Positions 14,617 through 14,951 of a stretch of DNA of 25,274 nt are shown one piece after another. A model generated the notes under the pieces. It was not told the DNA's origin and ran no database searches. It saw nothing but the letters and a program-made list of their open reading frames with translations. The stretch's first letter is position 1. Every line of letters begins with the position of its first letter. Origin of the DNA: a virus. Location: the UHGV virus genome UHGV-0164608; one strand, 5' to 3'. The position numbers and the translations under genes are program-made.

Positions 14617-14765
14617 CTTAATTACCTGTTGAAATTGCAACACAAGGTCGTCTTCGGGAGATCAATGGGAGTATTCCAATAACTTACCCAGGTATAGGAG
14701 TGCTTTCAAGTCTAAGACTATCTTCTGTCTAACAGCGCATGTTTTCATCTAAGCGCGCGCTCGTA

Positions 14766-14778
14766 TCCCCGCCACGCC
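14766..14778 (-). other. Possible cos-related sequence (minus-strand GGCGTGGCGGGGA)
   Basis: GC-rich 13-mer in an AT-rich intergenic region that matches, from memory, the 5' part of the P2/186 cohesive end (GGCG[A/T]GGCGGGGAAAGCA-); the following bases diverge. Confidence 0.3.
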
Positions 14779-14823
14779 TGCCCACTTTATGTAGTGGTTT
14801 TCATGCACCTGCATGATCTACGC

Positions 14824-14847
14824 AAAAGCCCGCTAGAACTGGCGGGC
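14824..14847 (-). terminator. Rho-independent terminator downstream of the lipoprotein gene
   Basis: Minus strand reads GCCCGC-cagttcta-GCGGGC followed by TTTT. Confidence 0.55.
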
Positions 14848-14951
14848 CTTAACACAAAAGATCCTCAAACGATCATGCGATCTCATGCAGCATAGACATG
14901 CGCGTTTATGCAGAATGTGCAAAATCGTAACATACTCAGTAAGCGTGAAAC

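What the first reader, a model, noticed from the sequence alone, without database searches (positions are those of the whole stretch)
14644..14951. cos-like GC-rich motif would put the three-gene operon at the extreme left end of the packaged genome
Minus-strand GGCGTGGCGGGGA at 14766-14778 resembles the start of the P2/186 cohesive end as I remember it, but the following bases differ. If this is the real cos, the operon lies between cos and Q, where P2 has no genes, and the lipoprotein and SOS operon lie at the right end.
Basis: partly seen in the sequence, partly recalled or inferred. Interest (0 to 1): 0.4.

Follow-up and report, generated by a model that had tools for sequence, protein, structure and literature searches.

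The report
Cos site of a P2-like prophage
The GC-rich motif is very probably the DNA-packaging cut site (cos) of a Fels-2/186-like prophage, and the three-gene operon beside it sits in a cargo slot already known in this phage family, so the finding is correct but ordinary.

Summary

**The motif.** GGCGTGGCGGGGA lies on the minus strand at 14766-14778. It is the first 13 nt of a 19-nt block, GGCGTGGCGGGGATACGAG (14778→14760). Its first 13 nt equal 186's cohesive end, and 12 of 13 equal P2's. The 57-bp core (14753-14809) matches the annotated P2 and 186 cos junctions at 43/57 and 45/57 positions.

**Prior record.** The same 19-mer is annotated as cos in Salmonella phage SEN8. It was the commonest variant (27/120) among cos-pattern IMG/VR contigs. 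The bases that differ from P2/186 (13-19) are the family's variable part.

**Cargo boundary.** Conservation ends 7 bp past the cohesive end, at 14753. Beyond that point relatives carry different genes.

**Consequence.** The operon (12422-14616, minus strand) would begin about 160 bp from the left virion end, between cos and portal gene Q. P2 and 186 are empty there, but 44/89 sampled relatives carry cargo. The literature already calls this interval a hotspot for foreign genes, including anti-phage systems.

**The cassette.** It is uncharacterised and is not Rst_3HP. Structure models suggest an RdgC-like protein and a PD-(D/E)xK nuclease.

**Not shown.** Virion ends were not mapped.

The parts
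14760..14778 (-). Predicted 19-nt cohesive-end sequence, 5'-GGCGTGGCGGGGATACGAG-3' on the minus strand. By homology with P2/186, the nicks fall between 14779|14778 on the minus strand and 14760|14759 on the plus strand. This would leave 5' overhangs, with the Q-side (left) arm starting at 14778.
   Evidence: Exact motif. Aligned to the annotated cos of P2 and 186. Identical 19-mer annotated as cos at nt 1-19 of SEN8. Commonest variant, 27/120, in IMG/VR.
14753..14759 (-). Conserved left flank CGCGCGC, the last 7 bp of the cos core. Similarity to relatives ends here and cargo begins at 14752.
   Evidence: Alignment of nine phages. Information content falls from 1.86 to 0.25 bits after +26; the 7-mer itself was fixed by the search pattern. 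Match starts at 14747-14753 in E. coli genomes and about 14746-14756 in phage records.
14779..14815 (-). Conserved right flank of the cos core: CATGCAGGTGCATGAAAACCACTACATAAAGTGGGCA, with TGCA motifs at -35 and -29 from the cut. Probable terminase recognition region (inferred).
   Evidence: Conserved in P2, 186, P4, SEN8 and Fels-2. 1.27 bits per position over -32..-1, a stretch not fixed by the search pattern. TGCA present at -29 in 95% and at -35 in 70% of 117 contigs.
14823..14848 (-). GC-rich hairpin (stem GCCCGC/GCGGGC) with U/A runs on both sides. Likely a bidirectional terminator that ends the right-arm (lipoprotein/DinI) transcript before cos.
   Evidence: RNA fold -18.8 kcal/mol, z -3.9, 0/200 shuffles as stable. 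A hairpin at the same distance is partly conserved across the family.
14874..14902 (-). Three YGCATG repeats at -124, -111 and -101 from the cut, spaced 10-13 bp. Candidate distal terminase-binding repeats (inferred); a fourth TGCAT lies at about 14908-14912.
   Evidence: Same three positions carry TGCA in 41-56% of 117 cos-bearing contigs, and the repeats are visible in P2, 186, P4 and SEN8. GCAT/ATGC density of 14779-14930 is in the top 8 of 2513 windows.
14617..14752 (-). Cargo-specific leader between the cos core and the first cassette gene. It presumably holds the cassette promoter, which was not identified.
   Evidence: No similarity to relatives with other cargo or to distant copies of the same cassette. 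No strong sigma-70 match.
13510..14616 (-). Cassette gene 1, 368 aa from the ATG at 14616. Predicted RdgC-like fold; no sequence family assigned.
13069..13497 (-). Cassette gene 2, 142 aa, unknown function.
   Evidence: phrog_11490. 13 homologue clusters. A gene of similar size sits in the same position; its homology was not checked directly.
12422..13069 (-). Cassette gene 3, 215 aa. Predicted PD-(D/E)xK (restriction-endonuclease-fold) nuclease.
11346..12386 (+). Portal gene Q, convergent with the cassette. Its last ~140 nt travel with the cargo module.
   Evidence: Pfam Phage_portal. Identity to 4LV2017 is ~100% up to about 12245, then 66/65/28%. E. coli H31, which has the same cassette, is 98-100% identical there.
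14952..15629 (-). Lipoprotein-like gene (225 aa, lipobox LTGC) at the right virion end. Not a homologue of 186 Orf97.
   Evidence: Translation. phrog_1353. BLASTP to 186 Orf97 E = 3.8.

Best explanation
Window 14753-14809 is the cos core of a Fels-2/186-like member of the P2 family (Peduoviridae). Auxiliary elements extend to about 14912.

**Inferred from P2/186, not shown here.** The phage terminase (gpP at 9583-11349, gpM at 6878-7528) recognises the conserved right-arm sequences. These are the TGCA motifs at -29 and -35 and the three YGCATG repeats at -101 to -124. It then makes staggered nicks 19 nt apart, at 14779|14778 on the minus strand and 14760|14759 on the plus strand. The result is virion DNA with 5' overhangs GGCGTGGCGGGGATACGAG and its complement.

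**Shown.** Only 7 bp (CGCGCGC) on the Q side of the cohesive end are conserved. Anything can therefore be carried from 14752 leftwards, and relatives hold unrelated genes there.

**Follows from the above.** The three-gene cassette occupies that slot. In the linear virion chromosome it would be the first coding DNA of the left arm, with its ATG 162 nt from the end. The lipoprotein and SOS (DinI/Tum-like) genes would be the last genes of the right arm.
For: - Exact motif at the stated place.
- Base-by-base alignment to the annotated cos of P2 and 186, with similarity in both flanks: 43/57 and 45/57.
- The 26-mer is identical in Fels-2, RE2010, SopEPhi, Cartapus and SEN8. SEN8's record begins at this 19-mer, labelled cos.
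- In 117 IMG/VR contigs, conservation runs from about -37 to +26 and drops to background right after +26. TGCA motifs recur at -124, -111, -101, -35 and -29.
- Match starts with E. coli and phage relatives fall at about 14746-14756.
- Terminase large and small subunits, portal and gpA are present in the canonical order.
- The window is 100% identical to contig KP12_3, which came from a phage preparation.
- The same cassette lies cos→cassette→|←Q in Serratia and E. coli prophages that have three other cos variants.
Against: - No physical mapping of virion ends exists for this phage or, as far as I found, for any phage with this exact 19-mer. SEN8's cos was called during annotation.
- Bases 13-19 differ from P2/186, so the exact overhang length is an extrapolation.
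- Positions 0-11 and 19-25 of the conservation profile were fixed by the search pattern, so they carry no independent weight.
- The role of the TGCA repeats is inferred from conservation only.
- Whether this prophage is inducible is unknown. The KP12_3 contig runs across cos rather than ending at it.
Confidence: 0.9

Rival explanations
1. It is a homologous but non-functional relic: the prophage is defective, and the sequence is conserved by descent rather than by use.
For: Only 25 kb of the element is in the window. No induction or end-mapping data exist. One copy of the cassette (L017, Serratia ureilytica) lies in a visibly degraded prophage that keeps cos and a portal remnant.
Against: The core is identical over 26 bp to those of isolated phages (SEN8, Cartapus, RE2010, Fels-2). 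Terminase, portal, capsid, replication and immunity genes are intact ORFs with full-length Pfam matches. An identical 25-kb sequence was recovered from a phage preparation.
Confidence: 0.07
2. It is a chance GC-rich match or a purely transcriptional element (terminator or regulatory site), unrelated to packaging.
For: The intergenic region does contain a strong hairpin terminator at 14823-14848. The pattern scan also calls a weak terminator-like hairpin at 14782-14797.
Against: An exact 13-mer is expected about 7e-4 times by chance. Similarity to P2/186 covers 57 bp and sits at the syntenic position. The small dyad beside the cut is not maintained as a pair across 120 cos sites, so a structural or terminator role for it is not supported.
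Confidence: 0.02

Closest known systems
cos sites of coliphages 186 and P2 (19-nt 5' cohesive ends; 55-bp core of Ziermann & Calendar 1990, as cited in PMC5694545)
   Same: Same position between the gpA-side accessory genes and portal Q. The first 12 nt follow GGCG(A/T)GGCGGGG. Same (T/C)GCGCGC after the overhang. Same right-flank block TGCAT(T/G)AAAACC...AAG.GGGC. Same distal TGCAT repeats.
   Different: Bases 13-19 are ATACGAG instead of AAAGCAT (186) or AAAGCAC (P2). The cos-to-Q interval is 2373 bp with three genes, against about 170 bp with only a terminator.
cos of the Fels-2 group (Felsduovirus/Elveevirus: Fels-2, RE2010, SopEPhi, SEN8, Cartapus, Klebsiella phage 4LV2017)
   Same: The 26-mer GGCGTGGCGGGGATACGAGCGCGCGC is identical in all but 4LV2017, which has one mismatch. 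The right arm is >95% identical in Fels-2, RE2010 and 4LV2017 and 83-88% in SopEPhi and SEN8. All carry cargo between cos and Q.
   Different: Only the cargo differs: a 565-aa hypothetical protein (Fels-2), an 'abortive infection protein' (RE2010), a reverse-transcriptase/retron system (4LV2017), a hypothetical protein plus an HNH endonuclease (SEN8), a DUF4145 protein (Cartapus), and the three-gene cassette here.
cos-proximal gpA-gpQ defence hotspot of P2-like phages (Rousset et al. 2022, PMC9122126; earlier Dodd & Egan 1996 and Nakayama 1999, as cited in PMC5694545)
   Same: Low-GC variable genes lie next to cos in an otherwise conserved phage. The E. coli copy of this cassette is listed among the hotspot loci in Rousset's Table S5 as unannotated hypotheticals.
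   Different: This cassette has not been tested. It is unrelated in sequence to the validated three-gene 'hp+hp+hp' system (Rst_3HP, my name for it from memory). That system's genes appear to lie on the gpA side of cos, judged from the start of the cloned sequence.
lambda RexA / E. coli RdgC fold class and PD-(D/E)xK defence nucleases
   Same: The gene 1 model matches RdgC, CENP-L, IML3 and CHL4. Adams et al. 2024 place RexA in the same fold group. The gene 3 model matches BamHI-like restriction endonucleases and also McrC, HamA and NucC, with D...ExK invariant.
   Different: No sequence-level relation to RdgC or RexA. RexA itself was not among the listed hits. No RexB-like membrane partner is present.

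Membership tests
P2/186-type cos site (Peduoviridae) | Cohesive-end sequence beginning GGCG(A/T)GGCGGGG, 19 nt, followed by (T/C)GCGCGC | tested here: met
   14778→14753 reads GGCGTGGCGGGGATACGAG CGCGCGC. Aligned to the annotated P2 and 186 cos.
P2/186-type cos site (Peduoviridae) | Conserved ~55-bp core including the right-arm flank | tested here: met
   43/57 to P2, 45/57 to 186 and 42/57 to P4. The family profile is conserved from -37 to +26. The 55-bp core concept is cited in PMC5694545.
P2/186-type cos site (Peduoviridae) | Syntenic position between gpA-side genes and portal Q, with gpP and gpM terminase genes in the same element | tested here: met
   Pfam: Phage_GPA 16330-18744, Phage_portal 11346-12386, Terminase_6N/6C plus Terminase_5 9583-11349, Phage_term_smal 6878-7528.
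P2/186-type cos site (Peduoviridae) | Terminase cleavage that produces 19-nt 5' overhangs in virion DNA | not testable with these tools
   Needs virion DNA. The SEN8 cos with the same 19-mer was called during annotation, not mapped.
cos-proximal cargo/defence hotspot of P2-like phages | Variable gene content at a fixed site next to cos, between conserved gpA and gpQ | tested here: met
   Six relatives with the same cos carry six different cargos. The cos-to-Q gap is bimodal: 45/89 are ≤270 bp and 44/89 are 379-4764 bp. Literature.
cos-proximal cargo/defence hotspot of P2-like phages | Cargo protects the lysogen against other phages | not testable with these tools
   No PADLOC hit. Function is inferred only from location and from the nuclease and RdgC-like folds.
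Three-gene 'hp+hp+hp' system of Rousset 2022 (Rst_3HP) | Sequence homology to the three proteins of the validated system (pFR109) | tested here: not met
   BLASTP of all cassette proteins against the three pFR109 proteins gave a best E of 4.3.
PD-(D/E)xK nuclease superfamily (gene 3) | Restriction-endonuclease-like fold with a D...(D/E)xK catalytic motif | tested here: met
   [not shown]
RdgC family (gene 1) | Sequence membership (Pfam RdgC) and a ring-forming, DNA-binding dimer | tested here: not met
   [not shown]

The most novel reading that the evidence does not exclude
The three-gene cassette at the left virion end (RdgC-like protein, 142-aa protein, PD-(D/E)xK nuclease) is a new anti-phage or exclusion system. 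In this reading the RdgC/RexA-like protein senses foreign or replicating DNA and licenses the nuclease. The cassette would spread among P2-like phages as a module bounded by the cos core and the last ~140 nt of the portal gene.
Probability: 0.4. Interest if true: 0.45.

Novelty: already known. Interest (0 to 1): 0.15.

Why it matters
Locating cos fixes the ends of the packaged chromosome, which allows correct genome orientation and annotation of this Klebsiella/E. coli prophage.

It also shows why cargo can sit there. The packaging signal needs only 7 conserved bp on the portal side, so that side is free to carry swappable genes.

None of this changes current understanding, because the same cos sequence and the cos-proximal hotspot are already published. 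The only open lead is the uncharacterised cassette. It is a reasonable candidate for a defence screen and is already listed, without annotation, in a published hotspot catalogue.

Tried and rejected
- **Rst_3HP.** I tested whether the cassette equals the validated three-gene system of Rousset 2022. BLASTP found nothing.
- **Family libraries.** Pfam, NCBIfam and PADLOC gave no hits for the cassette proteins or the lipoprotein. PHROGs gave only families of unknown function.
- **Solved structures by sequence.** Profile searches of the PDB found nothing meaningful.
- **Dyad beside the cut.** CCACT/AGTGG at 14784-14797 looked like a conserved hairpin with compensatory changes. Across 120 cos sites the pairs are often broken (for example A:C in 43), so I rejected it.
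- **Cassette promoter.** The sigma-70 scan found no convincing site in 14617-14752. The leaders of four diverged cassette copies do not align.
- **Packaging direction.** I looked for literature on which DNA end enters the head or the cell first in P2. Nothing usable is in the held library, so I make no claim that the cassette is injected first or last.
- **Published end mapping.** A search for the 13-mer found only the SEN-phage papers.
- **186 Orf97.** It is not homologous to the 225-aa lipoprotein-like protein.

Full report
**What the window is**

The window is a P2-family prophage of the 186/Fels-2 type. Pfam assigns the following:
- small terminase gpM (6878-7528, minus strand)
- large terminase gpP (9583-11349, plus strand)
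- portal gpQ (11346-12386, plus strand)
- replication protein gpA (16330-18744, minus strand)
- a Dam-type methylase
- 186-type CII and CI
- an integrase

Bases 47-25000 are 100% identical to GenBank OM835953, 'Klebsiella phage KP12 clone KP12_3'. GC is about 0.55 in the structural genes and 0.33-0.38 across 12500-14500.

**Checking the observation**

GGCGTGGCGGGGA is present once, on the minus strand at 14766-14778. I fetched the reference records for comparison. P2 (NC_001895) annotates cosL at 1-19 as GGCGAGGCGGGGAAAGCAC. 186 (NC_001317) annotates cos at 1-19 as GGCGTGGCGGGGAAAGCAT.

I joined each record's right end to its left end and aligned both with the window's minus strand:

| Phage | Right flank | 19-mer | Left flank |
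|---|---|---|---|
| window | ...CATGCAGGTGCATGAAAACCACTACATAAAGTGGGCA | GGCGTGGCGGGGATACGAG | CGCGCGC TTAGATG... |
| 186 | ...CATGCAACTGCATTAAAACCGACCCATAAAGTGGGCA | GGCGTGGCGGGGAAAGCAT | TGCGCGC CAGAGG... |
| P2 | ...TTAAGGTGCATTAAAACCGCCCCGTGAAGCGGGCG | GGCGAGGCGGGGAAAGCAC | TGCGCGC TGACGG... |

The match is therefore not an isolated 13-mer. Over the 57-bp block, 45 positions match 186, 43 match P2 and 42 match P4. This block corresponds to the '55-bp core' of P2-family cos sites attributed to Ziermann & Calendar 1990 (cited in PMC5694545).

**Relatives and prior annotation**

A sensitive BLAST against phage records found 79-87 records with the region. The 26-mer GGCGTGGCGGGGATACGAGCGCGCGC is identical in Fels-2, RE2010, SopEPhi, Cartapus and SEN8, and has one mismatch in 4LV2017.

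SEN8's record ends exactly at the base equivalent to 14779 and begins with the 19-mer, labelled 'putative cos site'. Its genome announcement gives ggcgtggcggggatacgag as the cos site, found during annotation (PMC5427200). Cartapus annotates the same stretch as a putative cos homologous to that of P2.

The window's exact 19-mer is the commonest variant, at 27 of 120. Positions 13-19 vary widely across the family (AAAGCAC, AAAGCAT, ATACGAG, ATAGCAT, CTACGAG and others).

**Anatomy of the site**

I anchored 117 contigs on the cut and computed information content per position. Positions 0-11 and 19-25 were fixed by the search pattern, so they carry no independent weight. The informative results are:
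- strong conservation from -32 to -1 (1.27 bits per position)
- an abrupt fall to background immediately after +26 (0.25, then 0.11 bits)
- TGCA at -29 in 95% and at -35 in 70% of contigs
- a partly conserved GC hairpin at about -70 to -45
- TGCA at -124, -111 and -101 in 41-56% of contigs

In the window these map as follows:
- core: 14753-14815
- hairpin: 14823-14848, folding at -18.8 kcal/mol with z -3.9, and with U/A runs on both sides that suggest a bidirectional terminator
- YGCATG repeats: 14874-14902

P2, 186, P4 and SEN8 show the same layout. I infer that terminase recognition lies mostly on the right arm. That role is not demonstrated here.

**The cargo boundary**

Match starts with 1260 E. 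coli genomes fall at 14747-14753, and with phage records at about 14746-14756. Leftward of CGCGCGC every relative carries something different:
- Fels-2: a 565-aa hypothetical protein
- RE2010: an annotated abortive-infection protein
- 4LV2017: a reverse transcriptase with a partner gene
- SEN8: a hypothetical protein plus an HNH endonuclease
- Cartapus: a DUF4145 protein
- SopEPhi: two ORFs

In the IMG/VR sample the cos-to-Q distance is bimodal. It is ≤270 bp in 45 of 89 contigs, as in P2 and 186, and 379-4764 bp in 44 of 89. The window's 2373 bp is typical of the second group.

On the other side, the module boundary lies inside the portal gene. Identity to 4LV2017 is about 100% up to roughly 12245 and then falls to 66, 65 and 28%. 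An E. coli prophage with the same cassette is 98-100% identical there.

**Comparison with the literature**

[quoted passage not shown] Rousset et al. 2022 describe the cos-proximal gpA-gpQ region as a hotspot of anti-phage systems, with 1,650 gene arrangements in 18,150 E. coli loci. A 2026 NAR paper repeats this.

**The cassette**

The three genes are 13510-14616, 13069-13497 and 12422-13069, all on the minus strand. They have no Pfam, NCBIfam or PADLOC match and fall in PHROGs of unknown function. Homologues form about 13-37 clusters, and nearly all those with a named source are from Enterobacterales.

The gene-1 homologue is followed by genes of about 139-144 and 215-221 aa, next to and convergent with the portal gene, in three other settings:
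- a Serratia prophage (61% identity)
- true P2-type E. coli prophages (52%)
- a degraded Serratia ureilytica prophage (46%)

In each case the cassette lies 175-220 bp beyond cos, and these prophages carry three other cos variants.

The cassette is not the validated 'hp+hp+hp' system of Rousset 2022. Its E. coli copy does appear in their Table S5 as unannotated hypotheticals.

Structure models:

| Gene | pLDDT | Best fold matches | Other evidence |
|---|---|---|---|

Adams et al. 2024 place lambda RexA in the same fold group as RdgC, IML3 and CHL4. A defence role is plausible from location and folds, but it is untested.

**What is not shown**

No virion end has been mapped for this phage, or for any phage with this 19-mer that I could find. 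The 19-nt length and 5' polarity are carried over from P2 and 186. I could not establish from the held literature which end is packaged or injected first.

**Verdict**

Novelty is nil for the cos site and the hotspot. The cassette is an uncharacterised member of a known kind of locus.

Noticed in passing
window 12240-12386 (3' end of portal gene Q): The swappable cargo module includes the last ~140 nt of the portal gene. Identity to 4LV2017 drops from ~100% to 66/65/28% there, while an E. coli prophage with the same cassette stays at 98-100%. The protein motif (W-L/I-x-x-E-V-I-x-F-x-x-Y) is kept across different cargos.
   Followed up: partly
[not shown]
   Followed up: partly
window 22112-23788 (+): A 558-aa low-GC protein with DUF4041 and T5orf172/MUG113 domains sits between the CI repressor and the integrase. 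This is a second accessory slot of the prophage.
   Followed up: no
window 16220-16235: Perfect LexA-box consensus match CTGTTTATATTTACAG, upstream of the small ORF and the DinI/Tum-like gene. It parallels the SOS-controlled p95 operon of 186.
   Followed up: no
window 12419-12440: Perfect 8-bp inverted repeat CCTATAGA-N6-TCTATAGG straddling the stop of cassette gene 3, between the convergent Q gene and the cassette. It may be a weak bidirectional terminator (read).
   Followed up: no
window 7101-7280: GCAT/ATGC motif density here equals that of the cos region (7 per 152 bp, against a window mean of 1.4). It lies inside the small-terminase gene region.
   Followed up: no
Rousset 2022 Table S2A cloned sequences: P4-like satellites from Klebsiella carry cos variants such as GGCGTGGCGGGGAGAGCAT. 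Satellites as well as helpers therefore vary in bases 13-19 of the cohesive end while keeping the first 12.
   Followed up: no
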